From Eledone cirrhosa (taxonomy: Eukaryota): a stretch of 64,000 nt of DNA. The stretch lies in NCBI GenBank assembly GCA_964016885.1, contig OZ024741.1, forward strand, positions 234,360,001-234,424,000, in the 5' to 3' direction. Shown here one piece after another: positions 141 to 59,210 of the stretch (positions within the stretch are counted from its first letter, which is position 1; the number at the start of each line of letters is the position of its first letter). A model generated the notes under the pieces. That model did no database searches. It was not told the DNA's origin and saw only the letters and a program-made list of their open reading frames with translations. Both the position numbers and the translations under genes were made by a program.

Positions 141-703
141 TTATTGCTCGAAAATCAGATAATTTCTTCTTAGTCTGAATTTCATGTTTGCTGAAATTGC
201 TCTATGATCAGAAGTTAGTGTTTGAAAAGTAGTTGTATAAGCTTCTGCATAGCAAACAGATCGAATCCCCATCTTTCTACTCAATATGTAATCTACTTGC
301 ACATTAGATCCATTTCGGTAACATGTCCAAAGCTTCCGTTTAGGATTGTGAAAGCGATCGTTTACTGACAGTAGACCAAAACATTCCATAAATCAAAAAG
401 ATGTTCACCATTGCGGTTTGTGAATTCGTGATAGCTATATTGTACCCTGTCTAGACACAAATGTGCATTGAAATCACTAACGATGAAATCTACGTTGTGT
501 GAAGAAATAAGACATACAATGTCTGAGAGATCTTCATAGAAAGTAATGAACTCATTCTCGAGTGAATGATTATGTGGGGAATGGCAGCATATTATGGTAG
601 TTTGGGGATTTCCTGAAAAAGTGTCCACCACAATGCGCGATTGAATAGTCAGGTTGCTCTTGAACGCTACTAGTAACAAGTAACACATTACAACCTGTGA
701 CAC
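141..703 (-). pseudogene. Non-LTR retrotransposon AP-endonuclease fragment (RTE-like), frameshifted
   Basis: Two overlapping ORFs carry APE motifs: HSPHN, SDFNAH, NRNGEHL, WTC...QVDYIL and SDHR. Confidence 0.8.
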
Positions 704-704
704 G

Positions 705-965
705 GTCAGGTCGTCGGCGACTAAACCGGCAACACCACTAAGCTTGCTTGGTGAGGAGGGTGATTTTTGGAAACCCTACGGGATGTAAATAAGACCCATC
801 AAAGGATGGAGTAACTCAGGAAAGTCAACGACCATCTAATATAGTATCTAGAAGGTAACTCTGATATAAAATCCATAAGGGTAGATGGTGCTCATCTGTT
901 GTAGTGAAGACAGTCCGTCTAGGAGAAGAAATCTCTGAAATAAAAAGCGTTCAGCGAGAACTTGC
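705..965 (+). mobile_element. Probable RTE-type 5' UTR remnant
   Basis: GGAAACCCTACGGG...GTCTAGGAGAAGAAATCTCTGA resembles RTE 5' regions (recognised by eye). Confidence 0.35.
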
Positions 966-4058: not shown

Positions 4059-5046
4059 ATGATAATAATAATAATTTCGTTTATTAGCCACAAGGGCCGA
4101 CATGTAGGGGACAATACAAAGACAGGGACATTGGGGGTTTACAATAAGGTCGAGTAAAAGTGCACAATGGCAAGACTAATTTAACAATGAAGATATAAAA
4201 ATATAAAATAAACTATGCATAAATATAACAAAATAAATTCCCCTGTAGGAGGCGGACGACCCAGGTCTGACTCAGGTACCCCACCAATCCTGAAACAACC
4301 TGCGCTTCTAGGTCACCCAGGGAGAGCACCCCTCTCCTCAAGTTAGCTAGCCTATAGGCGCATGGCCATTCTCGCCACATTCATCCACCTTTTAGCAAAT
4401 GTACTGGGGGGCAGCACTTCTCTCTCCACCCTCACCTTCCTTTCCAGGTGAAATTTGAAGAAGTTGATGAGGGATTGGCCGAACAGAAAAGTGTCTGTCT
4501 TCAGTCCGTTTAATCTGGTCCACTTTCGCAACGGCCACCAGACAGAGGAAAATTGCCTGCTCTTCATGACCTAAGGAAGGCGCCGGGTCGATCTTCACTA
4601 TGGACTCGGCCGATAGCTGGATCCGTTCTACACGCGACAGTAGCTGTTCGACATAATTCCACAAGTCAGTAATGCACGCACATTGGACAAGTGCTTGCAG
4701 GACGATTTCGTCGCTCTGTGCGCATCTTGGGCAGGTCCATCTGACAGCACTTCCGTGCCTGTAGAGTTTATCCCGAACCGGCAGTGCCCCCCGGTAGCAC
4801 TGCCAAGCGAGGGATTTCTGGAAATTGTCCATCGTCCCCGGCTCGAAAGTCCTCCAGTACAGACTGGTCAGTTCGACTTCGTCGAGGCGCAAAGCTTCTC
4901 CGAGTGCGTCATCACACTTGCCCACCACTAATCCTCTATTGAACTCGAGAGTGGAAGTTCCACTGATCGCATTGCCCGCTTGGTAGAGGGCAGTGAGTGC
5001 CTGGCAACATTCCAGGTGCCAGTCACCCAGTCTCGGTCTCTTCTTG
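4055..5046 (-). pseudogene. L1/Tx1-clade LINE 3' fragment with 3' UTR, AATAAA and (ATT)n tail
   Basis: Paralogous to 1821-2700 (SLAWQCYRGALPVRDKLYRHGSAV..CPRC); ends GGCCCTTGTGGCTAATAAACGAAATTATTATT. Confidence 0.85.
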
Positions 5047-5242
5047 ATAATAATAATAATTGTTTCTACTTTTGGCACAAGGCCAGCAATTATCCCAGTG
5101 TATTACTGGTACTATATTTTATCGACCCCATAAGGATGAAAGGCAAAGTTAACCTCGGCGGGATTTGAACTCAGAATGGCAAGGGCCGTAACTCTATGCG
5201 TTGAAGCATGGCGTCCGACCCTCTACCGATACTGCCAATCCA
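5047..5242 (-). mobile_element. Nin-domain tRNA SINE, full length
   Basis: Reverse complement of the 2846-3031 family. Confidence 0.9.
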
Positions 5243-27986: not shown

Positions 27987-30704
27987 ATGTACCCTGTTCA
28001 GTCTAGCTACCCTATTGGAAGTCAGCAAGGCATTAACAACCAATCGTTGTACCAAAACCACCATCTGAAAGGCCACCCAAATGCTTCGTCTGGGGGCAAA
28101 GCATTTCGACCTTTGGATGGCTCTGGAGGCACAACAGCGACAGCCACTAGTGTTACAACATCTAGTGGAGGCGGGAAGAGCTTTAGAAATGATACAATTG
28201 CCCGCAAAGATTTGTCTACTCAAAGAACTGCCTTGCCTAACCTCAATCAGGGTAGTTCCTCTACAAACAATAACACCACCGGCAATACGCCCCTTATTCA
28301 AAAAACATATCCCTGTACCATTTGTAAGAAGATATTTTCCAGCCCATTTTTCCTCAAAAATCATGAGCAAACTCACCAGATACACTCAATGGGGACGTCA
28401 AAACCATTTGGCTGTTCTGGATGTCACAAGCAGTTCCCTCTATTCGTGGACTTAAAGAATCACAATTGTATGCCTGTCCAGTCCCAGACAACACAGGAAA
28501 TGACAGGACAAAGAAATCTGATGGGCAACAATATGCATTCAAAACCATATCATTGCGACATATGCAACAGAGGCTTTTCCCACCATGCTAATTTAAAGTT
28601 GCACCTTCGCACTCATTCCGGTGACAAACCATTTTCTTGTGAGGTATGCGGCAAAAGTTTCTCTCAGAAGAACTGTCTGAATGATCACAAACGGCTTCAC
28701 AGTGGAGATTTGTTCTACTGCAGTTACTGCAAGAAGCCATTCGCCAATGAATTCTTTCTACGCAACCATCTAAGAACTCATACTGGCGAGAAGCCTTTTG
28801 AATGCAACTTTTGCGACAAGAAGTTTTCACAGCGCGGTAACTTGAAAACTCATATGCGCATACACACAGGGGAGAAACCGTTTCAGTGTGACCTCTGCGA
28901 TAAATCTTTTGCTCAGAAGAATTGCCTGACAGACCACAAACGCCTTCACACAGGCGACATGTTTTTCTGTATTGTCTGCAAGAAGGCATTCACTAACCAA
29001 TTTTTCTTGAAAATCCACGAACAGAGCCACACTGCTGTAAGTAATAGTGAAGGAGGCGAGTCTATGTTTTATTGCACCTTTTGCAAAAAGGGATTCTCAA
29101 ATCAGTTTTTCCTACGTAACCATGAACGGACACACACAGGAGAAAAACCTTTCCACTGTCAGTTTTGTGGTAAATCATTTGCTCAAAGTGGAAACTACCG
29201 ATCACACATGAGAATACATACTGGCGAAAAGCCATTTGTCTGTGATGTCTGTGGAAAAGCATTTACTCAAAGAAACAGCCTTAGCGATCACAAACGCTTT
29301 CACACTGGCGAATTGTATTATTGTAGTGTGTGCAAGAAGGCCTTTTGCAATCAATTTTTCTTGAAGATTCATGAACAGACTCATTCAGGGGAGGTATATT
29401 ATTGTTCCTATTGCAAGAAAGGTTTCCCTAATCAATTCTTCTTAAAAAATCACTTGAGGACTCACACAGGTGAGAAGCCATTTGTGTGTCAATTTTGCAA
29501 TAAAGCTTTTGCCCAGCGAGGAAACTTAAAACTTCATGTGAGAATACACACTGGGGAGAAACCACATGTCTGTGACATTTGTGGTAAAGGTTTTGCACAG
29601 AAAAACTGTCTGATTGATCACAAGAGGATTCATAGTGGAGATTTGTTCTTCTGTATTGTATGTAACAAAGCGTTTACAAACCAATTTTTCTTAAAAATCC
29701 ATGAACAAGCTCACACTGGTGAAATGTTCTATTGTAGCTACTGCAAAAAGGGATTTTCTAACCAATTCTTCTTAAAAAATCATGAAAGGACCCATACAGG
29801 AGAAAAGCCATTCCAATGTAATTTCTGTAAAAAGAGCTTTTCTCAGCGTGGTAATCTAAAGTTACATCTACGGAGACACACTGGTGAGAGGCCATTTAAC
29901 TGTGACGACTGTGGCAAATCTTTCAGTCAACGCAACAATCTTATTGACCACAAAAGAGTACACAACGGAGAGCTATTTTATTGTAACTTCTGCAAGAAGC
30001 CATTCTGCAACAAATTTTTCCTACAGAATCATGAGCGAACTCACACTGGAGAGAAGCCATTTGAATGTGAGTATTGCAAGGAGAAGTTTTCACACCAGGG
30101 TAATTTAAAAACTCATCTTCGCAAACATACTGGAGAGAAACCATTCTCGTGTGATCACTGTGGCAAGTCATTTACTCAGCGACCTAATCTGACCAACCAC
30201 AAGTGTCCTGCTGCTATAGCTGCTGCTGCTGCAGGGGACAGGATGTTTCTCAAGGGAACCAATACTCTGTCATCGACAATCAATACCCTCGGTAAGAAGT
30301 TCAATACTGGCACAGTTAGCAGTGACGGAGAACTAAAATCCCTAAACTACAGCTCCTCGAACAAAGAAGCCAACTCCCAGATGAAAACGAACATAAAAAA
30401 CAGTGAGATGGTACGTGATCAATCAAACCAACAGAGCAAAGATTCCTCAGTGACTACACCAATTAGGCCTCAGGCATCTACTGCTTCTTCTTCACATTCC
30501 AACTCAACCTACATTCATGGAATGCCTCAGTCATGGGAGAACAACTATTTGTGGTCACGAGGTTTTGCAGTACCACCTTTAATTGGCTCCGCCTGGCCCA
30601 GCGTCACTTGTAGCTCCAAACAAAACAAGCAGAACGCCTGGGGTAACCTTCAAGGGATGCACTCTTCAAGGAATACATCAGAAGATATCAGTAGTTCCAA
30701 GTGA
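27987..30704 (+). CDS. C2H2 zinc-finger protein ZF-A, 905 aa, 22 fingers (20 C2H2 + 2 C2HC), single coding exon
   Basis: Uninterrupted ORF; CxxC-x12-HxxxH repeats with TGEKP linkers; downstream AATAAA at 30781 and beyond. Confidence 0.95.
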   Translation: MYPVQSSYPIGSQQGINNQSLYQNHHLKGHPNASSGGKAFRPLDGSGGTTATATSVTTSSGGGKSFRNDTIARKDLSTQRTALPNLNQGSSSTNNNTTGNTPLIQKTYPCTICKKIFSSPFFLKNHEQTHQIHSMGTSKPFGCSGCHKQFPLFVDLKNHNCMPVQSQTTQEMTGQRNLMGNNMHSKPYHCDICNRGFSHHANLKLHLRTHSGDKPFSCEVCGKSFSQKNCLNDHKRLHSGDLFYCSYCKKPFANEFFLRNHLRTHTGEKPFECNFCDKKFSQRGNLKTHMRIHTGEKPFQCDLCDKSFAQKNCLTDHKRLHTGDMFFCIVCKKAFTNQFFLKIHEQSHTAVSNSEGGESMFYCTFCKKGFSNQFFLRNHERTHTGEKPFHCQFCGKSFAQSGNYRSHMRIHTGEKPFVCDVCGKAFTQRNSLSDHKRFHTGELYYCSVCKKAFCNQFFLKIHEQTHSGEVYYCSYCKKGFPNQFFLKNHLRTHTGEKPFVCQFCNKAFAQRGNLKLHVRIHTGEKPHVCDICGKGFAQKNCLIDHKRIHSGDLFFCIVCNKAFTNQFFLKIHEQAHTGEMFYCSYCKKGFSNQFFLKNHERTHTGEKPFQCNFCKKSFSQRGNLKLHLRRHTGERPFNCDDCGKSFSQRNNLIDHKRVHNGELFYCNFCKKPFCNKFFLQNHERTHTGEKPFECEYCKEKFSHQGNLKTHLRKHTGEKPFSCDHCGKSFTQRPNLTNHKCPAAIAAAAAGDRMFLKGTNTLSSTINTLGKKFNTGTVSSDGELKSLNYSSSNKEANSQMKTNIKNSEMVRDQSNQQSKDSSVTTPIRPQASTASSSHSNSTYIHGMPQSWENNYLWSRGFAVPPLIGSAWPSVTCSSKQNKQNAWGNLQGMHSSRNTSEDISSSK

Positions 30705-32569: not shown

Positions 32570-34360
32570 AGGAAGAATGACATCACATGTCTATACCAGC
32601 ATAGTCGTCTCCTGCACAGTAGACCTGATTCTTTTTATACCCAGCTTTTCTCACAGCTCATCTATGCCTTGTCATTCATGCATATTAACATTGCACATCC
32701 AACAAAGCAAGCTCACTTCATTTCTCTTCAGCCTTTATATGTTCTCTGCATCAGCTGCTCATATATCACTACCCTGCAACATAGCACGCAGGCATCATAC
32801 AGCTGGCCTTTTATTTGTAGAGAGAAACCTTTTATGAACAAAGGTAACTTACTGAACATTTTCCATCGTGTTCTTTCTCTAGCTACACTGCTAATTAGAT
32901 CATCTAGCTAGCTAGATACTTCCTGTTTTCTATATTTCAAGCAAGGCTACTTCATAATGTGATCTTTCCTAATTACTAAAACTTTGGTTTTTGCTAAGTT
33001 TACTCTCAGCCCTTTTGATTTTAAGTTTTGTTTCCACAGCTAGAACATATTTTCTAGTTTTTCCACAGATTCAGCTATATGAACCAGATCATCAGCATAT
33101 AGAAGTTCCTATTGACAGCAGTCCTAAGCTCATCTGTTATGGCATGAACTACAATGAACAGAAGTGGGCTGAGGACCAAACCCTGATGCACTCCTACCTG
33201 TACCATGCATTCCTCACTAAACTCCTTTCTTACTCTCACTTTACTGACAGTTCCTCTGTACATGGCTTGCACTAGTCTCACAAGCCATTCTTCTACAACT
33301 AATTTATGTTAATGACCACCAGATGTTAGATCAAGATACTCTGTCAAATTCATTCTCTAAATCAACAAAGGGTAAATATAACAGCTTATTCTTGGCTTGG
33401 AACTTCTGTAGCTGTTTCACTAGGAGAAGCGCATCTGTAGTACTTTCCCCAGGCACGAAACCCAACTGCGTCTTGTCTAATTTGACTCCCTAATTAGATA
33501 TGCTTGAACTCTTTCCATCACTTTCATAACTTGGTCCATTAGTTTTATTCCTTTGAAGTTGCTCCTTTCTAGAGCATCACATTTTCCTTTACAGCAGTTT
33601 ACAATTGTACTGCACCAGTCATTAAGTATGACTCCTTCTTGTACTACCTGATTGACTATGTGAGTTACTAGTTGAGCTCCTACTTCTGATGCTTTTAACA
33701 TCTCTGTGTCTGTCTCCAATGGTCCTGCGACTTTACTATTCTTCATCTTGATGATTTCAATTGCTAATCCCTCTGCTGGGTCGACTGAAGGTAGTCTCTC
33801 TTCCTCCCATTCATTCTCCACATTCATCAGCCTGTCATAGTAAATTTTCCAGGCCTCTTTTTTCTGGAGTATTAGTGGTGCTAAGTACAGCAGTCATTTC
33901 TAACACACTTTTCCTCAACAACATCTCAATTCACACTGACATACTGCCTTGCAATATAGAACACCTCATGTCACAAGACATTAGCAAACCTTTCAGCCTC
34001 TTTCTGTGCTATGTATAGGTGTTGTCTAGCTTCCCTCATAGCTAATTGATACTGGTCTCTGCTACCCCCATTTTTCTATCTACTGTGCTGTTCCACCACT
34101 AGGTCACCTGTCTGGTTGGCACTTTGCTCCAGCCACAAGTCTCATCAGAAGTTCACAATAGGTTGTCACATAAGAATATCCAAATGTCGTCTATATCATG
34201 TGTATCTAACTTGTCTTCCCTCTCACCATGCATCCCTTAGAGCCTTTCTAAACATATATTCAACAGAAGGGTCCTTTAGTTTCCATTCTCTCGATCTCCA
34301 TATTTTTCTGCTTATCTTGTTCCGTTTTGTGTTTATTCTGATATCACTAATAACTAATTT
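32570..34360 (-). pseudogene. RTE-clade LINE reverse transcriptase remnant
   Basis: NFKGIKLMDQVMKVMERV, VGVHQGLVLSPLLFI and LLYADDL (frameshifted); many disruptions. Confidence 0.85.
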
Positions 34361-50169: not shown

Positions 50170-52548
50170 TCACGAGTTCTGTTTGCCATGTTTGCCGCTA
50201 GAGTAAGATGTAGGCATGTTTGGCCAGCTGGAGCCAAGCAAGGTAGGCATTGGGTAGCCTCTTGGCCAGAGGTAATTTGTTTCCCAGTTCTGTGACATCT
50301 CATGGAGGTAAGCAGCAGAATTAAACCGAGACAGGTTTGAAGGATGTAGTCGCATTCCAGTCTGGGAATCTTGCGGATTTTGATGATGGTGTTGCTCTGA
50401 CCGTGCCATATGAGAATTTGGTATATGTTCTGGATGGTGTTTATTGTTTTTCATATTGTGCTTGCCGGAATTCGACGATAACATTGATGGCTGATGAGCT
50501 TGTTGCTGCTGCTGCTGTTGTTGTTGTTGTTGTTGCTGCTGCTGCTGCTGCTGAGGTTTCGATGAACTTGTATCACAGTTATATGAAGATGTCTGAGAAG
50601 TTGATGATAAATTGCTCTTTTCGTGGAGCTGATGGCCCTCGTTGTCATTCTTCTCCTCAGAAGACATCATCATTGATGTCCCCATCACTGGGAGAGAATC
50701 AGAACCTGACATGGGAGGCGAGAGGTTGGAGTCTTTAGGGTACATCATACAGCCATGAGAAGATTGTGAAGAGGTAGAGGACATTGGTGGTTGCTTGGCA
50801 AAAAGTTCACAGCCCGTCCGAGTCCTTTTGTGGTTGTTTAAGTTGGCTCGCTGTGAAAATGACTTGTTGCACGTATCACACTTGAATGGTTTCTCTCCAG
50901 TGTGTGTCCTCATGTGTAACTTCAAATTTCCAGCTTGAGAAAAAGCCTTCGAACAAATCTGACATTGGAATGGTTTTTCTCCTGTGTGAGTTCTCTCATG
51001 GTTACGCCATTCAGTTCGCTGTGAGAAGAGCTTGTTACAGTAGCTGCAATGGAAAGGTTTTTCTCCGGTATGGACCCGGATGTGGTTTTTCAGGCTAATT
51101 TGCAAAGTAAACTCCTTGGTGCAATAGTCGCATTTAAACAACTGTCCTGTGTGGACACGTTGGTGATTTTCAAGATTAGTTTTCTGTGAAAAACACTTGT
51201 CACAAAGGTCACACTTGAAAGGTTTCTCACCTGTGTGTGTTCTCATGTGTAACTTGAGGTTTCCGTGCTGACTAAAAGACTTTGAACACATACTGCAATG
51301 AAATGGTTTCTCTCCGGTATGAGTCCTCAGATGGTTCTTTAGATTAATCAAAAGTGTGAAATCTTTTGGACAAAATGTACATTTGTAAAGTTCTCCCGTG
51401 TGAGTGCGCTCATGAATTTTCAAAAAGAATTGGTTGCAAAATGGTTTTTTACAATAATTGCAATAGAATAGATCACCAGTGTGCAGCCTTTTGTGGTCAC
51501 TCAGATTCACCTTTTGTGAAAAAGCTTTGCCGCATACATCGCAGGCAAATGGCTTCTCTCCAGTATGTGTTCTAAGATGGAGCTTTAAGTTACCTCTCTG
51601 GCTAAAAGCCTTCGAACAAACGCTGCAGGAAAATGGTCGTTCGCCAGTATGTGTTCTCAAATGATTTTTTAAGTTTGTCTCTTGTGAGAAACATTTGTTG
51701 CAGAAATGACAGTGAAAGGGCTTTTCACCTGTATGTATACGTTCATGTATTTTGAGGAAGAACTCATTAGAGAATGGTTTCTTACAGAACTGACAGTAGA
51801 GGAGGTCTCCAGTGTGAATACGGTTGTGGTAAGTCAAGTTGATTTTTTGAGAAAAGCATTTACCACACACTTCACATGAATATGGTTTCTCCCCAGTGTG
51901 TGTTCTGAGATGGAGTTTGAGGTTACCCTGTTGACTGAAGGCCTTTGGACAAAGGGAACACTGAAAAGGTTTCTCCCCTGAGTGGGTCCTTAAATGGTTT
52001 TTGAGATTGATTTTCTGCGTAAAGGCTTTGTCACAAGAATTGCAGTCAAATGGTCGAACGCCTGTGTGCGTGAGCTCATGGTTCTTTAAGAAGAACTGGT
52101 TGGTGAATCCTTTTTTACAAAATGTACAAAAGAAAGATTTCTCGTTACCACCTTGACTATTTCGCATGCTTTCACTATCTTGTTGGTTGTCATTGCTGGT
52201 GCCGCCACCACCACCACCACCACCATCACTCCCACTATTGCCACCTGCACCACCACTATTATTGTTGCCAGGACTGCTGCATGTTGAAGCTGGACCACTG
52301 TTATTCATGCACATATTGTTGTTGCCACTGTTGTTATTGTCTGTATTATGGCCCCCACTGGTGCCATCATTGGCACCGTTTGATTGACTAAAGTCTTTCC
52401 ACATAAGATCATTGCTCTTGTCGAGAATGTTCATGATCTGTGACTTGTCAGGGACTTTTAAATGACAACCAGGGTTGTAGATTGGCTGACCATAGAAGCC
52501 AGAAGTGTTGTTGAAGTTCATTGGGAAAACCGGTTGAATTGGATACAT
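50170..52548 (-). CDS. C2H2 zinc-finger protein ZF-B, 792 aa, 16 fingers (last one degenerate), polyG and polyQ tracts, single coding exon
   Basis: Uninterrupted ORF; TGEKP-linked fingers; paralogous to ZF-A. Confidence 0.95.
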
Positions 52549-52647: not shown

Positions 52648-54659
52648 CAAAATATATATATTTTGTGTGAGTCACCTCAACATGATCTCCACACATAAAT
52701 CCTCAAATGTCATCATTCATAAAACACCAGGGGAAAAACAGTCAGATGAAGAAGAAATGATACAAGCCACAGTGTATCCTTCTGCTTGTCTTCTAATTAA
52801 ATAACAGTGCTCAAAATGAAAATGTGAGAAATTGCACAAGTGGTCTTAGAAATAATATATGTATGCACATATATACATACTGGGGTTTAAAATGACAGTA
52901 TGGTTTAATAGAACTTAAGTGACAAGATGATAAGAATGAGATGGTAGGTGGGATTTTAAATTCATTCTGTGCTAACATCAAAGATTGTTGCTCCTGCTGC
53001 TGTTGTTGTTGGTGGTGGCTGTTTTCCAGTTCTTTTATTCCAATATTGTTAGAAAAGAAAACTTGGTGGCAGTGTAGAGTAGCAGTGCTTCAAGACAGGC
53101 TGTCTGAAATATAAAGGTGATTTATTAGTGATTGAAAAGGATGTGAGAGTATCTGTGTGTGCATGTGCAAGCAAGTATATGCATATCTGTATATGTATGT
53201 GTATGTGCATGTGTGTGTGTGTATGAATGTATGTAGGAACTATGCCAAAAGGACACAACAAACTTCTAGTGATAAAACTTCTCATGATAAAATGCAACTG
53301 GTGCATTCTGTAGAGTGCAGGAACATATGTAAGTAAGAATTGGGCCCCCTGGCCCATCTGAGAGGTCAGTAGCTCAGATTAAGTACTGACTTGGTCTGTG
53401 ACAACCAATCCAAACTTTCCTAGCAGGGAAAATGGATGTTAAATGATGATGTATGTATGTGCATATATACCTGTACATGTGTTTATGTATATAACTATCA
53501 CTGTCAACTGCCTTAATTTGAACATAAACAATTCTATATGAAACCAATCATGCTATCCACGAAGTCCAGCAAATGCTATCCAATCCATAATCCTACAATC
53601 ATGCCCACTCACCACACAAGACAAAGTAAAATTCTAACATATTCTTCAAAACCATACCCTAACCACCTGGCAAAACAACAACCAGCCCGCAGCAATTACT
53701 GATGTGAGGGGGCACAGACGTCATCAGGCTGCAGTTGTTGTATTACATAGTTTCTACATTGTGTACATTATTTTATTATACTTTGTTCCCTGAAATCAAA
53801 GACTGATAGCTGATGTTTAAGGAAATTACAAAAATACAAGGACCGTGACAAGTGGAGAGATGTTGTGCTGAGTAGGACCTGTCCACCCTTGCAAGCAGGG
53901 AAAAGCGGACGTAAAATGATGATGATGATAATGACACCCTAGAACTAAATATAAATATTATTGAGCTCATGAGAACTTCCTACCCACATTCAAATTTGTA
54001 ACTGCCTACTGAATCATCATCACTACTATCATCATCATCGTTCAACACCATTTTCTATGCTTGCATGGTTTGGACGGGCTATCTCGTACTGAGGCTAAAC
54101 TGGTCAGATGACCTCATCTTGCCTATACATTCCATTCTGGACTTCGTTTTCTACAGCTGGATGCCCTTCCTAATCCTAATGTCATTTTATAATGTGTACT
54201 GGATGTGTTTTTGTCATGGCACCAATACTACCACCTTACAGGGTGAACTGGATGCTTTTTGTTGTGGCACCAACATGATCACCTTATAGGTTGGGCTGGG
54301 TGCTTTTTCTTGTGGATATATATATATATAGGGAGGAAATGGTTGAATCCTTAAGACCAAAACAATAATTAAGTTACATAACTTTAAATTTGTAAAATCA
54401 AAATTTTTTATGTACATATAATTTAATCATGGTATTGAAAAGGTTACTCTTAGCTTGCTAGAAATAGCAGTCAAATCAAACTCTACTGACTGGAAAAAAA
54501 CACACACAAGAGAAAGTTAGTGCTTCATATATATATATATATAAAAACTCAAAAAAGCAGATGGTCATGCCTGGAACAGCTTTCATCACAGCTCTGTTAG
54601 ATCAGACCAGACTGGAAGATAAGCAGCAACAACATATAAATATTATTGTATTTGTTTAA

Positions 54660-54860
54660 CCCTTTCATCACCGTATTTCTAATGAAATACACTGCCTATG
54701 TGCTTTAATCAATTTTTAAAATAACCAAATATTTTTAGGAATTTAATAAAAATAACCTTTTCATTAGCAAGCTGATATGTAGAGCATTACATAACAAAAA
54801 TTTCTTAAATAAAACTATGATGAAAAGATTTATTTTAAGTATAAACAATTTTAAATGTGT
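54660..54860. mobile_element. piggyBac-type MITE end
   Basis: TTAA followed by CCCTTTCATCACC; partner end not found. Confidence 0.45.
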
Positions 54861-54879
54861 ACTTTTGAATCATAAATCT

Positions 54880-55190
54880 TCGAAAACGAACCAAGTGAAG
54901 TAGGGCAAATCATATAACCCTGAGTGCCCATTCTCCCTGAGCAGATAGAGAGTGGAACACATTCTGAGCTCATGTAGAGTAGCACTAACCTAAATACACA
55001 TGGAAGCACAATCAAGTGCTTAAGGAGATCATACATATGGTAAGTACAGCAAAAGTAAAATCCGTTGCACCATTTTACACGACAGGAGGCAGCAAATCAT
55101 GGCTAGGAACAGCTATGCCATACTGGGTATGGGAGTGGAGTCTTTTGGGTCGTGCAGATGACTAGGAGTGCACAGCAGACCACCAAGGAT
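54880..55190 (+). pseudogene. HERO-type non-LTR retrotransposon, CCHC knuckle region (left part of a split element)
   Basis: Manual translation: N.VK*GKSYNPECPF....VEHILSSCRVAL..KYTWKHNQVLKEI...LLGRADD*ECTAD. Confidence 0.75.
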
Positions 55191-55205
55191 CTTTTTAAAC
55201 AAACA

Positions 55206-55211
55206 TTTATT
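55206..55211 (-). promoter_or_regulatory. Candidate polyadenylation signal of the transposase
   Basis: AATAAA on the minus strand about 135 nt after the stop codon. Confidence 0.5.
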
Positions 55212-55345
55212 AACAACACAAGGCTTCAACGTCATTCAAACTATATAGAAAAGCAGAAAAACATCAAAAATACAGTTTTTAAGGTTAGATTAGTTACTAA
55301 ACATGGATCCACAAATTTTAGAGGCACCTTTTCTCCAGAACCTAT

Positions 55346-57115
55346 TCAGTAATGTAAATTTGTGTGGAATGTCTTGAAACATGGGTCTACACATAGAGCA
55401 ACTTCACAGTCTGCGCATTGGTAGCGACTTTCTCTCCTTCTATCATTATCGGAACATACTTTGCACTTCCTGGTTGGATTTGGCTTCTTTTCGGTTGGTG
55501 GAATCAGAGAAGGTAAGTGCCTTTCAGTCAAACGAAGTGTATTTTCAATGGACAGGCGGCCACCGCTTGTCTTTGACCGTTGCACATGGTGTCTTTCCAC
55601 TAAACTGCGGATAACGCTCATTCTGAAGTCAAGGAGTGATGAGTCATTTCCCACAGCTTTGTACAATATCAAAGCATTGAACAAAGATATATCCAGCATG
55701 TGAAAAAATACTTTTTTGTACCATTTTATGGTTTTTCGCATACTGGGGTACGCATGCTGTACACTATCACATAAGTCCCCACCTCCCATGTATTTGATAT
55801 AGTCAACCACACATTTAGGCTTTACCACATCCGTACCAATTGCTATACTCCTTCCGGTATTTTGCATTGAATTGTCATGCATTGTACTAAGCATAAAAAT
55901 GTCTTGCTTATCCTTCCAATGATAAGCAGCAGTACCTCCTTTCTGGAATACTTCCATTTCTCCAGTCTGCATTTTTGAAAAGTCAGATTTCGGCATTCCA
56001 CTTCTGTTTTTCTGCACAGTTCCACACATGTAGGTTTGATTATCCAGCAACATGTTTGCCAGAGTAGGGCTAGTAAAAAATCTGTCAAGGTAGAGTTTAT
56101 AATTTTGGCCAAACAAGGGCTCCATGAAGGTGTAAACAACCCTTTCACCTTGGTCACTCTCCTCAGTACTGTATCGTGCAGTGGCATCGGTATATACAAG
56201 AAAGTCCCACACATAGCCAGTTGTACTTCCACAAAGTTCATAGCTTTTCACTCCAAACCTGGCCCGCTTGGTCGGAATGTATTGGCGAAATCCAAGCCGA
56301 CCCTTCCACAAGATCAGCGACTCGTCAATACAGACATGTTCACGTGGTAGATATGACGTCCTGAACTTTTCTCGCAAGTGGTCAATAATGGGCTGTAATT
56401 TGTAAAGCCTTTCATCAGCATTTTGCTGGGTATTATCAGCAAAATGTAGCATAGTCAGCAGGAGCAGGAAACGGTTTTTGGTCATACACTGTCCAAAAAA
56501 TGGAGTAGAAATCAGTGGATCAGTGCTGAAATACATGGAAATTTTAGGTTTCTTTTCTATCCCCATTAGCATAATCAATGCAAAAAATTCATATATTTCA
56601 TCGCTGTTGGTTGGTTTCCATGCTTTTATCCTGGAGTATTCCATTAGATCATATCTAGCTATGAACAACTGAGCATACTTGTTTGTCTCTGTAACTATGT
56701 GATATACTAAGTTCGGTGAAACGAACTTTTTGAAGCAGACAACAGGCTCAGATTCCTGCGTCAAATCCTGATGTTGAACACCATGATTTCCGGAAAATTC
56801 ATTAACAAATGGTGGTGTAAATGACTTTGAGTTCCAATCACTTTCACTAACACGAGAAGAACGTTTTTTCTTTGTATTTTCTTTTCTTTGACTCTGTCGC
56901 GTGCGTTTTCCCCGCCCGTGTGTATTTACACTCTGTTGACCTGTACTTGTTGATGGTTGGTTTATATCAATATCGGTATCACTTGAGCTCGATTCAACTT
57001 CAGGATCACATGAAAAATCACTATCTAGTTCACTATTATAATCCTCATCATCAGAACCGTGAGTAAATATTATTTCCAAAACATCTTTTACATTTACTGT
57101 TTTTCTTGACGCCAT
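55346..57115 (-). CDS. piggyBac transposase (PGBD4-like), 589 aa from the first in-frame ATG
   Basis: Acidic N-terminus; DDD motifs IDESL, LDRFFTS and GGGDLCD; C-terminal Cys-rich domain CKVC..CADC...C..PC...H; no stops. Confidence 0.92.
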   Translation of the reverse strand: MASRKTVNVKDVLEIIFTHGSDDEDYNSELDSDFSCDPEVESSSSDTDIDINQPSTSTGQQSVNTHGRGKRTRQSQRKENTKKKRSSRVSESDWNSKSFTPPFVNEFSGNHGVQHQDLTQESEPVVCFKKFVSPNLVYHIVTETNKYAQLFIARYDLMEYSRIKAWKPTNSDEIYEFFALIMLMGIEKKPKISMYFSTDPLISTPFFGQCMTKNRFLLLLTMLHFADNTQQNADERLYKLQPIIDHLREKFRTSYLPREHVCIDESLILWKGRLGFRQYIPTKRARFGVKSYELCGSTTGYVWDFLVYTDATARYSTEESDQGERVVYTFMEPLFGQNYKLYLDRFFTSPTLANMLLDNQTYMCGTVQKNRSGMPKSDFSKMQTGEMEVFQKGGTAAYHWKDKQDIFMLSTMHDNSMQNTGRSIAIGTDVVKPKCVVDYIKYMGGGDLCDSVQHAYPSMRKTIKWYKKVFFHMLDISLFNALILYKAVGNDSSLLDFRMSVIRSLVERHHVQRSKTSGGRLSIENTLRLTERHLPSLIPPTEKKPNPTRKCKVCSDNDRRRESRYQCADCEVALCVDPCFKTFHTNLHY

Positions 57116-57297
57116 CTTACCATTCAAATCACACGCGTACTATAAGAATAACAATGACAAAAAAAAATCTCAAATGATCACTGAGAAAAAAACCCATGCG
57201 AAATTTATTTGGTAACCGTACTCATATCTGAATGATTGACAAATGCCACATCAATCAACTAGTAGCCCCATCTAACTTTGAAGTTATGAACTGTTGG

Positions 57298-57440
57298 AAA
57301 AGAGTTATCTCGTCCGTGGCCCTGGAATGCATACATGTTAGAACAAGTTATCTAGTCCGTGGCACTAGAATGTATACATGTTAGGACGAGTTATCTTGTC
57401 CGTGGAACTGGATGCATATATTAGGACGAGATATCTCGTC
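57298..57440. repeat. piggyBac subterminal tandem repeat, about 43 bp x 3.3
   Basis: GGACGAGTTATCTCGTCCGTGGCACTGGAATGCATACATGTTA; each unit contains the palindrome GGACGAG-N4-CTCGTCC. Confidence 0.9.
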
Positions 57441-57456
57441 TACAATACGATAGAGG

Positions 57457-58170
57457 TTAAGACCGGATATCGTACTCCATTCCAGTTCATCAAAACAGTT
57501 GATTTTGATTGATCTTACCATGCCATTTGAAAGTAAAATAGAAGAAACACACGTGTTCGAGATCGAAAAATACGCCAGTTAGGGAAACAGCCTGAAGGAA
57601 GCTAACTTCCGCATCAAAGTTCTCGCCATAGAAGTTAGAGCTAGATGCTTTGTTGGCAAATATGCCTACAATCTCATAAAACAACTCTCAGTTTCTGTGA
57701 AGAGCAAGACCAAAGACAATATCACAGGCAGCGGGGAGGAGTTCCAGCTGTATCTGGTCAAGGAGGGACAAAAACAACCTCCATGTTGTTTGAGGGCATC
57801 GTGTTTGTATTTTAATGTACGCCAAGGGGAGTAACTTGTAGTGATGGCGGCGACGGAGACACTGTAGAGTCTCCCCGCTACCTTGACTACCAACGCTATT
57901 TTTCCAAACTCAAGAAAGCGTTTAAATATGTTTGAAAGCAGGAGTAACAGAGATGAGTTCCAGCTGCATCTTGTCAACAAAATGCGGTTTAAATGCACAA
58001 CAAATTTCCGATATCCAAGTAGCTAAAAAAAAGTCAGCAAAAGGGCACCCAGGATTAATGACCACGATACAGCCCGGCCCCCTTTAGAGCCTAAGAAGTT
58101 ATGAGGCGAAACACTTGTATGAGTGGGGTTTCTTTTTAGAAGACCTTCTGCTATCCAGCTCTCCAGAGAG
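57457..58170 (+). pseudogene. HERO-type retrotransposon RLE domain and 3' UTR (right part of the split element)
   Basis: LRPDIVLHS..KQLILIDLTMPFE...EKY..*...AIEVRARCFVG, starting exactly at the TTAA. Confidence 0.8.
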
Positions 58171-59210
58171 TTTCTTATCATCATAAAAGAGGACGTCAGT
58201 GTTAATTTCTACTGTATGTATAATTTTATAATGACATTTTTTTCTTATCTTAACACGACCATAAATATCTCTCTTTTAACAGAATCGGTACAAGATTTAA
58301 CCGATGCCACATTTACACATGCATGCACCTTCGGTGAAATCGTGTTTTGTTTCTGTACAGATATGTATCTACAGCATATGTCAGTTACTTAGTGCACAAT
58401 TCAATACATAACTCTCTTCCCATTCGAGAGAGGTAAATCCTTAATTTGAGATACTACGAGCTGCAACTCGTTCTCTGCCTCCAACGTTGTCGTTTCGGCC
58501 GAAAACCCAGGCACTGCCAAACACCGGAGTTTGACATACTTCTTCCTTCGATACATCAGGTATCCCATTTTCCTTCGCAAAATCAGAAAAACAACAGACC
58601 GCTTAAAGGATGCAGGGTGACTGTTGCACTTGGCAATACCTTCGCCATTTTGTCCGCAAGACACAGCTAAGAGAAACCATTCGGACTGGGGTGTAGAGTC
58701 TGATTCCATTCCCTGTTTAATTTTTTTCTTTCATTTTTATTTTTCTTCTATTTTTCATTCATAACTATCCAGAGGGAAAAAATTCCTTTAAGACGACAGC
58801 AGTTATCTCCCTTCTATTTGTTAGCCGATTGAATAGACCTTCGTTGGTTTTGACGATATGTGTTCCAGTTGTTCGTTCAATGGAACAGCCTGTTCGTGAA
58901 ATTAACGTGCTGTGGTAAGTGACGCTCAAGATGCCACGATATTGACGTCGAACCTAGTACCTATGGATTGCGAAGCAAACTTCTTAACTTTTAGACTATG
59001 CTGCACCCACTACCTATTTGCATCTACTCATGAAACAAAGAGAAGAATTAAAACCTACATATATTTCGCTAGAACAAAGTTAAGGACTAAATACATAATA
59101 TATAAATCAAGTCGTATTTATTACAACTTTTCTCATTCTTTACCAGTAAATGTTTACATAGAGATCATGAATAGACAAACAGCTGTTTCAACTGTTGACA
59201 TTCTCTAGCA

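What the first reader, a model, noticed from the sequence alone, without database searches (positions are those of the whole stretch)
30510..30599. Unrecognised conserved 30-aa C-terminal domain in both ZF proteins
Seen: YIHGMPQSWENNYLWSRGFAVPPLIGSAWP (ZF-A) vs [30 protein letters not shown] (ZF-B, 50221-50310). They are 18/30 identical without gaps, with three invariant Trp, followed by SS.K..KQN, inside otherwise unalignable low-complexity tails. I do not recognise it as a named domain. Inference: a cofactor-recruiting effector module, conceptually analogous to KRAB or ZAD, for a cephalopod ZF subfamily.
Basis: partly seen in the sequence, partly recalled or inferred. Interest (0 to 1): 0.8.

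Follow-up and report, generated by a model that had tools for sequence, protein, structure and literature searches.

The report
Unnamed cephalopod zinc-finger tail motif
A short tryptophan-rich stretch that matches no named domain sits near the end of at least 23 zinc-finger genes of this octopus and of related cuttlefish genes, and likely serves as a docking site for a partner protein that regulates genes.

Summary
In detail: 18/30 identical, ungapped, at the stated coordinates. It is not a two-gene curiosity. At least 23 intact C2H2 genes of this octopod genome carry the motif 37-65 aa from the C-terminus, and 0 of 34 control ZNF ORFs do. Relatives occur in Octopus, Argonauta and cuttlefish, so it predates the ~275 My octopod-decapod split. 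Synonymous sites are saturated while the residues are kept (core pN/pS 0.21). No Pfam, PDB or Atlas match was found. It is therefore not a KRAB or ZAD equivalent. Best reading (0.55): a fold-on-binding docking site for one shared nuclear cofactor; partner and sign of regulation are untested. New context: the same genes share an N-terminal motif, 15 interspersed ZNF genes carry a second, different C-terminal motif, and three of the gene groups lie beside protocadherin genes.

The parts
27987..30704 (+). ZF-A coding ORF, 905 aa, tandem C2H2 array and tail in one frame
27987..28076 (+). ZF-A N-terminal family motif (MY-P/S-x-Q-x-x-Y/F... type), shared by most members
   Evidence: alignment of 21 N-termini
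28314..30212 (+). ZF-A zinc-finger region (20 canonical fingers plus degenerate ones)
30465..30641 (+). ZF-A extended conserved tail segment (R-x-Q ... core ... C..KQ.KQ..W), aa 827-885
   Evidence: column counts; alignment A3
30510..30599 (+).
30534..30572 (+). ZF-A motif-1 core, pattern W-E/D-N-N-Y-x-W-x-R-G-F/Y-P-hydrophobic, aa 850-862
   Evidence: Y, second W, R and F/Y in 21 of 21; first W in 20 of 21
50170..52548 (-). ZF-B coding ORF, 792 aa, tandem C2H2 array, poly-Q linker and tail in one frame
52450..52548 (-). ZF-B N-terminal family motif
50809..52134 (-). ZF-B zinc-finger region (15 canonical fingers plus a terminal variant)
50173..50352 (-). ZF-B extended conserved tail segment, aa 733-792
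50221..50310 (-).

Best explanation
The stretch is a conserved linear motif at the C-terminal end of an old cephalopod subfamily of at least 23 tandem C2H2 zinc-finger proteins; it is predicted to be disordered alone and likely folds onto one shared nuclear cofactor that the fingers would bring to DNA. Shown: the motif, its fixed core spacing, its selection at protein level, its family and its age. Predicted: disorder. Inferred: (1) the finger arrays bind DNA; (2) a low-complexity linker of roughly 50-260 aa lets the tail reach out; (3) the aromatic core Y-x-W-x-R-x-F/Y, with the first W, inserts into a pocket of a single partner shared by the family; (4) that partner changes transcription. 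Repression is slightly favoured (about 55:45, given docking), on prior knowledge of ZNF accessory modules and because the motif is not an acidic activation domain. The partner is unknown.
For: Family: 23 intact genes in G000. Leave-one-out HMM: 21 of 21 tested members score 40.7-89.9 bits; 34 of 34 control ZNF ORFs score at most -1.0. Protein-level selection: invariant Arg uses all six codons and Tyr both; core pS 0.93, pN 0.20, against pN/pS 0.77 just upstream; a broken copy has a 10-nt deletion inside the motif. Age: four named cuttlefish proteins fall in four separate groups with octopus genes, two with support 100/99, two at 93/93 and 92/85; split ~275 Mya (PMC9068888). Orthologue pair P0009/P0021: motif 23/30 and the 22 aa before it 22/22, but linker 40/124. 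Fixed spacing (single-residue indels in 4 of 21 cores) with predicted disorder (pLDDT 57.7, pTM 0.14) is the usual signature of a binding motif (own knowledge). Net charge averages 0; 0 of 22 tested pass the acidic-activation-domain rule of PMC10550315.
Against: No partner, binding or activity was shown. The AlphaFold run had only 24 sequences, so a small fold that needs a deeper alignment is not excluded. L175 has subfamily-type fingers and a similar N-terminus but no motif within the 6 kb fetched, so the motif is not obligatory. The first Trp is replaced in 2 of 23 members. No recalled corepressor motif fits all members. Expression of ZF-A and ZF-B was not shown here.
Confidence: 0.55

Rival explanations
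1. Composition-driven (fuzzy) activation or condensate segment: aromatic 'stickers' in a P/S/N/Q-rich tail contact coactivators without a fixed pose.
For: 5-8 aromatic residues per 38 aa in all 22 scanned members; poly-Q and S/P-rich linkers; predicted disorder.
Against: Position-specific invariance of Y, W and R over ~275 My with almost no indels; neutral charge, 0 of 22 pass the acidic-AD rule. That rule covers only one subclass of activation domains (PMC10550315).
Confidence: 0.13
2. Self-association module: the tails pair family members as homo- or heterodimers, as ZAD, SCAN and BTB do.
For: Dimerisation is the commonest job of non-KRAB ZNF accessory domains (PMC12774644 passage); clustered paralogues share the motif; a co-conserved N-terminal motif could be a partner.
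Against: No folded core predicted, whereas ZAD, SCAN and BTB are folded; no conserved metal-binding set (one Cys in 10 of 21).
Confidence: 0.12
3. Turnover or localisation signal: the motif binds an E3 ligase, phosphatase or import factor and sets protein level or location, not transcription directly.
For: Linear motifs with Trp, Tyr and Arg in S/P-rich tails often serve this way (own knowledge); 10 of 22 members end in Lys against 1 of 34 controls; FxxP occurs in 7 of 22.
Against: The conserved stretch (about 60 aa) is long for a degron; FxxP and LIR-like patterns are in a minority of members.
Confidence: 0.12
4. A diverged copy of a known cofactor motif or domain that the libraries used here do not model (for example eh1-like, Myc-box-II-like).
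For: A loose eh1-like spacing occurs in 8 of 22; the second W followed by x-R-G-F recalls Myc box II (recalled, not from a call).
Against: Strict eh1, WRPW, PxDLS, PxVxL, HCF-binding, LxxLL and YxF patterns (recalled) 0 of 22; no Pfam or PDB match; no non-cephalopod C2H2 hit among 1.84 billion representatives. InterPro, CDD and ELM could not be run.
Confidence: 0.07
5. Chance, recent duplication or gene conversion, or a constraint on DNA or RNA rather than protein.
For: The genes are tandem paralogues, and some pairs are recent (L063/L064; broken copies of L067).
Against: Saturated synonymous sites (pS 0.84-0.93) with low pN; all six Arg codons; retention in cuttlefish.
Confidence: 0.01

Closest known systems
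FiNZ domain of cyprinid ZNFs (Wells et al. 2023, PMC10547256; passages read)
   Same: Short (28 aa), lineage-restricted, no similarity to named domains, conserved across a tandem-ZNF subfamily, cofactor unknown.
   Different: FiNZ is N-terminal, Glu-rich, on its own exon, on ~700 young genes under positive selection that repress TEs. This motif is C-terminal, neutral, aromatic, in the finger ORF, on ~23 old genes with conserved fingers.
KRAB domain (PF01352)
   Same: Accessory module on clustered tandem C2H2 genes; proposed cofactor recruitment.
   Different: No PF01352 hit; wrong end of the protein; no separate exon; small, slowly evolving family. Two cuttlefish hits are named 'KRAB' by their source but show no KRAB among their Pfam domains.
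ZAD (PF07776), SCAN and BTB domains
   Same: Lineage-expanded ZNF accessory modules; ZAD-ZNFs, like this family, do not look like TE-chasing genes (PMC10547256 passage).
   Different: These are folded N-terminal dimerisation domains; this tail is predicted disordered and lacks ZAD's four cysteines.
Short cofactor motifs of transcription factors (eh1 and WRPW for Groucho/TLE, PxDLS for CtBP, Hox YPWM, Myc box II; recalled)
   Same: Works-like class: short aromatic motif with fixed spacing in a disordered tail.
   Different: None of the recalled patterns that were scanned fits the family; the core is 13 aa inside a ~60-aa conserved stretch.
Coleoid-shared C2H2 expansion clusters (Holzinger et al. 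2025, PMC12513265) and C2H2 clusters on the protocadherin chromosome (PMC9068888, PMC9795677)
   Same: Small octopus-plus-squid clades of C2H2 genes, reported as more highly expressed than other C2H2 genes; linkage of C2H2 and protocadherin clusters is published.
   Different: The passages read describe no accessory motif. Whether this family equals one of their four clusters could not be tested.

Membership tests
KRAB-ZNF | PF01352 match | tested here: not met
   none at E up to 10
KRAB-ZNF | N-terminal module on its own exon | tested here: not met
   C-terminal, same ORF as fingers in 23 of 23 intact members
KRAB-ZNF | Rapid finger turnover in a large family | tested here: not met
   finger regions 325/325, 352/353, 345/353, 185/189 identical to octopod orthologues and 405/482 in a deeper pair; about 23 genes
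KRAB-ZNF | TRIM28 binding and repression | not testable with these tools
   needs a binding or reporter assay
ZAD-ZNF | Four-cysteine folded N-terminal domain (PF07776) | tested here: not met
   no Pfam hit; one Cys in 10 of 21; no fold predicted
ZAD-ZNF | Homodimerisation | tested here: inconclusive
   see Tried and rejected; needs a biochemical test
FiNZ-ZNF | 28-aa acidic N-terminal sequence on its own exon, cyprinid-specific | tested here: not met
   position, charge (mean 0) and taxon differ from the description in PMC10547256; no direct sequence comparison with FiNZ was possible
Acidic activation domain | 39-aa tile with charge at most -9 and at least 7 W/F/Y/L (PMC10550315, equation 1) | tested here: not met
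   0 of 22 scanned members, lowest charge -4; the 23rd member was not scanned
Groucho/TLE motifs (eh1, WRPW) | Consensus pattern (recalled) in all members | tested here: not met
   strict eh1 0 of 22, loose 8 of 22, WRPW-type 0 of 22
Lineage-specific ZNF accessory motif (works-like class) | Conserved non-finger segment restricted to one tandem-C2H2 subfamily | tested here: met
   21 of 21 members against 0 of 34 controls; for 22 of 22 members the nearest gene by finger similarity also carries the motif
Lineage-specific ZNF accessory motif (works-like class) | Under purifying selection as protein across the lineage | tested here: met
Lineage-specific ZNF accessory motif (works-like class) | Autonomous effector activity or cofactor binding | not testable with these tools
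   reporter and pull-down needed

The most novel reading that the evidence does not exclude
Coleoid cephalopods evolved their own two-class effector code for zinc-finger proteins: one old subfamily (motif 1, at least 23 genes) and a second interspersed subfamily (motif 2, at least 15 genes) each dock a different cofactor through an unreported C-terminal motif, and these genes, lying beside the protocadherin arrays, regulate neuronal genes including the protocadherins themselves.
Probability: 0.1. Interest if true: 0.85.

Novelty: new variant of a known kind. Interest (0 to 1): 0.55.

Why it matters
Cephalopod C2H2 expansions are a headline feature of these genomes, yet the papers read here name no effector module for them and leave open whether they regulate neural genes or silence transposons (PMC12513265, PMC12988792; passages). 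Two sequence-defined tail motifs give a direct handle: a 13-residue core with three invariant residues can be mutated and used as bait, and an HMM now separates an old, conserved regulatory subfamily from the many ZNFs without such a tail. The named ZNF accessory modules (KRAB, ZAD, SCAN, BTB, FiNZ) are N-terminal; a C-terminal, same-exon motif would be a different solution. The limit: it covers tens of genes, not the thousand-plus of the expansion, and no function is shown.

Tried and rejected
Single-sequence homologue search with P0001 residues 830-890: 4 candidates, none scored; the profile search then succeeded. N-terminal motif as a single-sequence genome query found only 6 places, all known members. 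Pfam on both tails and on all 24 and 15 aligned members: nothing credible (weak Peptidase_S48, 2 of 24, E 0.039; Sigma70_r2, 1 of 24). PDB by sequence: motif 1 none at E up to 10; motif 2 matched 18 residues of a protein named NrN at E 0.003 and NDUA13 at 0.35, treated as chance. ESM Atlas: no usable hit for two tails; this shows neither novelty nor absence. Motif 1 against motif 2 by hhalign: probability 0.8%, 9 columns, so not shown to be related. Homodimer prediction of the tail: no answer, score 0.00, alignment not used; no evidence either way. No fold search was run, because both models were of low confidence. P0016 (repetitive ENA protein, E 1.4e-5) and P0038 (E 5.9) were dropped as unrelated. 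Weak genome hits on C3, C6, C24, C1 and C9 with short frames or stops were not counted; only the C6 one was fetched more widely and it gave no motif. The O. bimaculoides gene P0009 and O. vulgaris gene P0012 have no clear orthologue among the 23: missed or lost. Earlier scan findings: none returned in three look-ups. Paper searches found no description of the motif; one search returned only unrelated surname matches. Albertin 2015 (PMC4795812) is not held, and its supplement could bear on novelty; 3 supplementary files of PMC10547256 were not searched.

Full report
Observation. The window holds two long C2H2 ORFs facing each other: ZF-A (27987-30704, +, 905 aa) and ZF-B (50170-52548, -, 792 aa). 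The two 30-mers are at the stated coordinates, in frame, 18/30 identical without gaps. The tail alignment scores 174 against a shuffled mean of 49.5 and a maximum of 93 in 2000 shuffles. Pfam finds only zinc-finger families (and weak noise) in the full proteins and nothing in the tails at E up to 10.

Family in this genome. The window lies in a 3.0-Gb assembly. Close orthologues are annotated in Octopus species (L064 against P0003, L067 against P0024), so the source is an octopod. Seven single-sequence searches with different seeds converged on 23 intact genes: 13 at C2:233.8-237.4 Mb, 1 at C2:317.5, 2 at C2:329.9-330.3, 5 at C7:8.78-9.14 and 2 on C766. This is a lower bound, since only the best candidates are scored. 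In the 21 aligned members the core begins 37-65 residues from the stop, after 6-26 fingers and a low-complexity linker, in the same ORF. There are also two broken copies of one gene and two finger-less fragments.

Specificity. A 50-aa finger stretch of ZF-B drew 10,383 candidates; 150 were scored and 127 listed, and the top 42 rows all lie in motif-bearing genes or their broken copies. I fetched 34 of the 35 other loci in that list (one apparent duplicate on C25 left out; three long ORFs were cut by the 10-kb limit, one at its 3' end). This control set was chosen by finger similarity, not at random. None of the 34 carries the motif: they score at most -1.0 bits, while 21 of 21 members score 40.7-89.9 bits in leave-one-out tests. 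By finger similarity, the nearest neighbour of each of 22 members is another member. One control, L175, has member-type fingers and N-terminus but no motif.

Anatomy. Column counts over 21 genes (ZF-A numbering): W850 20, E/D851 20, N852 15, N853 18, Y854 21, W856 21, R858 21, G859 15, F/Y860 21, P861 16, W870 18. Weaker conservation runs from R827-x-Q829 (15 each) through Y842-L-H844 (13, 12, 17) and on to K878-Q-x-K881-Q (12-15). The two members found later keep these three; one lacks the first W and the F. The same genes share an N-terminal motif that starts at the initiator Met.

Level of constraint. The invariant Arg uses all six codons and Tyr both. Over all pairs of the 21 genes, pS/pN are 0.93/0.20 in the core, 0.86/0.32 in the 30-aa block, 0.78/0.60 upstream and 0.84/0.47 downstream (uncorrected proportions, pairs not independent). 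This rules out recent copying and DNA- or RNA-level constraint.

Distribution and age. A 16-row profile found 10 proteins among 3348 candidates: 9 with C2H2 domains and one tail-only cuttlefish model, named from O. vulgaris, O. bimaculoides, Argonauta hians and Acanthosepion (Sepia) pharaonis, or unnamed. A full HMMER pass over 1.84 billion representatives gave 11 hits: 7 of these, 3 further tail-bearing proteins (one clustering with a named Sepia protein) and one repetitive protein that I dropped. In a tree of 32 tails (85 columns; 6 of 29 inner branches strongly supported) four named cuttlefish proteins fall in four separate groups with octopus genes (100/99, 100/99, 93/93, 92/85). Several paralogues therefore predate the octopod-decapod split, put at ~275 Mya (PMC9068888, passage). 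No hit outside cephalopods was named, but clustering at 50% identity can hide members and Nautilus could not be searched directly. Fingers are highly conserved: 325/325, 352/353, 345/353, 185/189 and 184/189 against octopod orthologues, and 405/482 between O. bimaculoides P0009 and unnamed P0021, whose tail matches the named cuttlefish P0004 by eye; in that pair the motif keeps 23/30 and the linker 40/124.

Structure and known motifs. AlphaFold2 on the 24-row alignment gives pLDDT 57.7, pTM 0.14 and no helix or strand. Pfam, PDB and ESM Atlas give no credible match. Net charge around the core averages 0 with 5-8 aromatics; 0 of 22 pass the acidic activation-domain rule (PMC10550315, passages). 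Recalled patterns for eh1, WRPW, PxDLS, PxVxL, HCF-binding, LxxLL and YxF match 0 of 22; loose eh1 matches 8, FxxP 7, EVH1-type 6, LIR-like 5, PPxY 2, and a Trp beside G/S/T all 22.

Mechanism. Shown: a fixed-spacing aromatic core, selected as protein, at the end of a flexible tail in one old ZNF subfamily. Predicted: disorder alone. Inferred: such a segment is kept because it fits a surface on another protein, most simply one cofactor shared by the family and carried to DNA by the fingers (0.55). A fuzzy activation segment (0.13) fits the invariant positions and neutral charge poorly. Self-association (0.12) lacks a folded core. A degron or localisation signal (0.12) remains possible. A diverged known motif gets 0.07. 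The direction of regulation is unresolved; I lean slightly to repression on prior knowledge only.

Context beyond the finding. All 10 control ZNF genes from inside the C2:234-237 Mb and C7:9.0 Mb clusters, and one on C171, end in a second, different motif; a genome search added 4 more. It is not shown to be related to motif 1 and has octopod relatives. The other 23 controls have neither motif. Cadherin_2 matches flank three motif-1 groups, in line with the published C2H2-protocadherin linkage (PMC9068888, PMC9795677; passages).

Comparison and novelty. It works like a lineage-specific ZNF accessory module, with FiNZ the closest precedent (PMC10547256; passages and part of the supplements). It is not a member of KRAB, ZAD or FiNZ: position, exon layout, charge, fold and evolutionary tempo all differ. 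The dedicated cephalopod C2H2 study (PMC12513265; parts 1, 2 and 4 of 7 plus a term search) has 0 occurrences of 'motif', 'terminal' or 'cofactor' in its main text; passages of PMC13218726, PMC12988792 and PMC12774644 name no such module; seven library searches found none. Albertin 2015 was not available, and most subscription papers are not held.

Verdict. A real and apparently unreported C-terminal linear motif that defines an old coleoid ZNF subfamily, with a second motif in its neighbours. New variant of a known kind; interest 0.55; function untested.

Noticed in passing
G000 C2:234.0-237.6 Mb (L154-L162, L194), C2:317.59 Mb (L197), C7:8.82 and 9.05 Mb (L198, L163), C171 (L171), C861 (L196): A second C-terminal motif (pattern K-N-I-K-E/D-Y-x-P-hydrophobic-S/N-x-x-L-W-Q) ends 15 ZNF genes interspersed with the motif-1 genes. 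The 11 tested form their own group by finger sequence. No Pfam match; relatives in O. bimaculoides, O. vulgaris and Argonauta, no decapod seen in a search that scored only 8000 candidates; predicted mostly disordered with a short helix at the Trp; not shown related to motif 1.
   Followed up: partly
window 27987-28076 (+) and 52450-52548 (-): Motif-1 genes share an N-terminal motif beginning at the start Met (M-Y-P/S-x-Q-x-x-Y/F-x-M/V-G-x-Q...), 18/30 identical in a deep orthologue pair; no Pfam match in the full-length scans.
   Followed up: partly
G000 C2:237.75-241.7 Mb, C2:331.7-339.6 Mb, C7:2.0-8.72 Mb: Protocadherin-type Cadherin_2 matches begin about 0.3 Mb, 1.4 Mb and 0.06 Mb from three motif-1 gene groups (150 of 255 candidates scored). 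C2H2-protocadherin linkage is published (PMC9068888, PMC9795677); linkage alone shows no regulation.
   Followed up: partly
window 28320-30130 (+), 50900-52130 (-): Recurring atypical fingers with an N-Q-F-F-L recognition helix, preceded by a linker one residue shorter than TGEKP, alternate with Q-R-G-N-L-type fingers. They may not read DNA in the usual way.
   Followed up: no
L066 (C2:233.79 Mb), L152 (C2:233.73 Mb), L071 (C28), L083 (C2:237.425 Mb): Two broken, about 98% identical copies of L067 with 5 and 4 in-frame stops, one with a 10-nt deletion in the motif; two finger-less motif fragments.
   Followed up: yes
L175 (C1114:88.5-89.5 kb): ZNF with motif-1-type fingers and a similar N-terminus but a 31-aa tail and no motif within the fetched 6 kb: a natural loss or a truncated model.
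   Followed up: partly
C-termini of motif-1 proteins: 10 of 22 end in Lys against 1 of 34 control ORFs (one control was cut off at its 3' end).
   Followed up: no
window 55346-57115 (-): Uninterrupted 589-aa piggyBac-like transposase ORF (DDE_Tnp_1_7, E 1.5e-88, plus C-terminal zf-Tnp_2) about 2.8 kb upstream of the ZF-B start; no clear terminal inverted repeats in 54300-58300.
   Followed up: partly
window 4392-5102 (-), 362-775 (-), 33477-33893 (-): LINE-like remnants; only the first matched Pfam (zf-RVT), the other two are judged by eye.
   Followed up: partly
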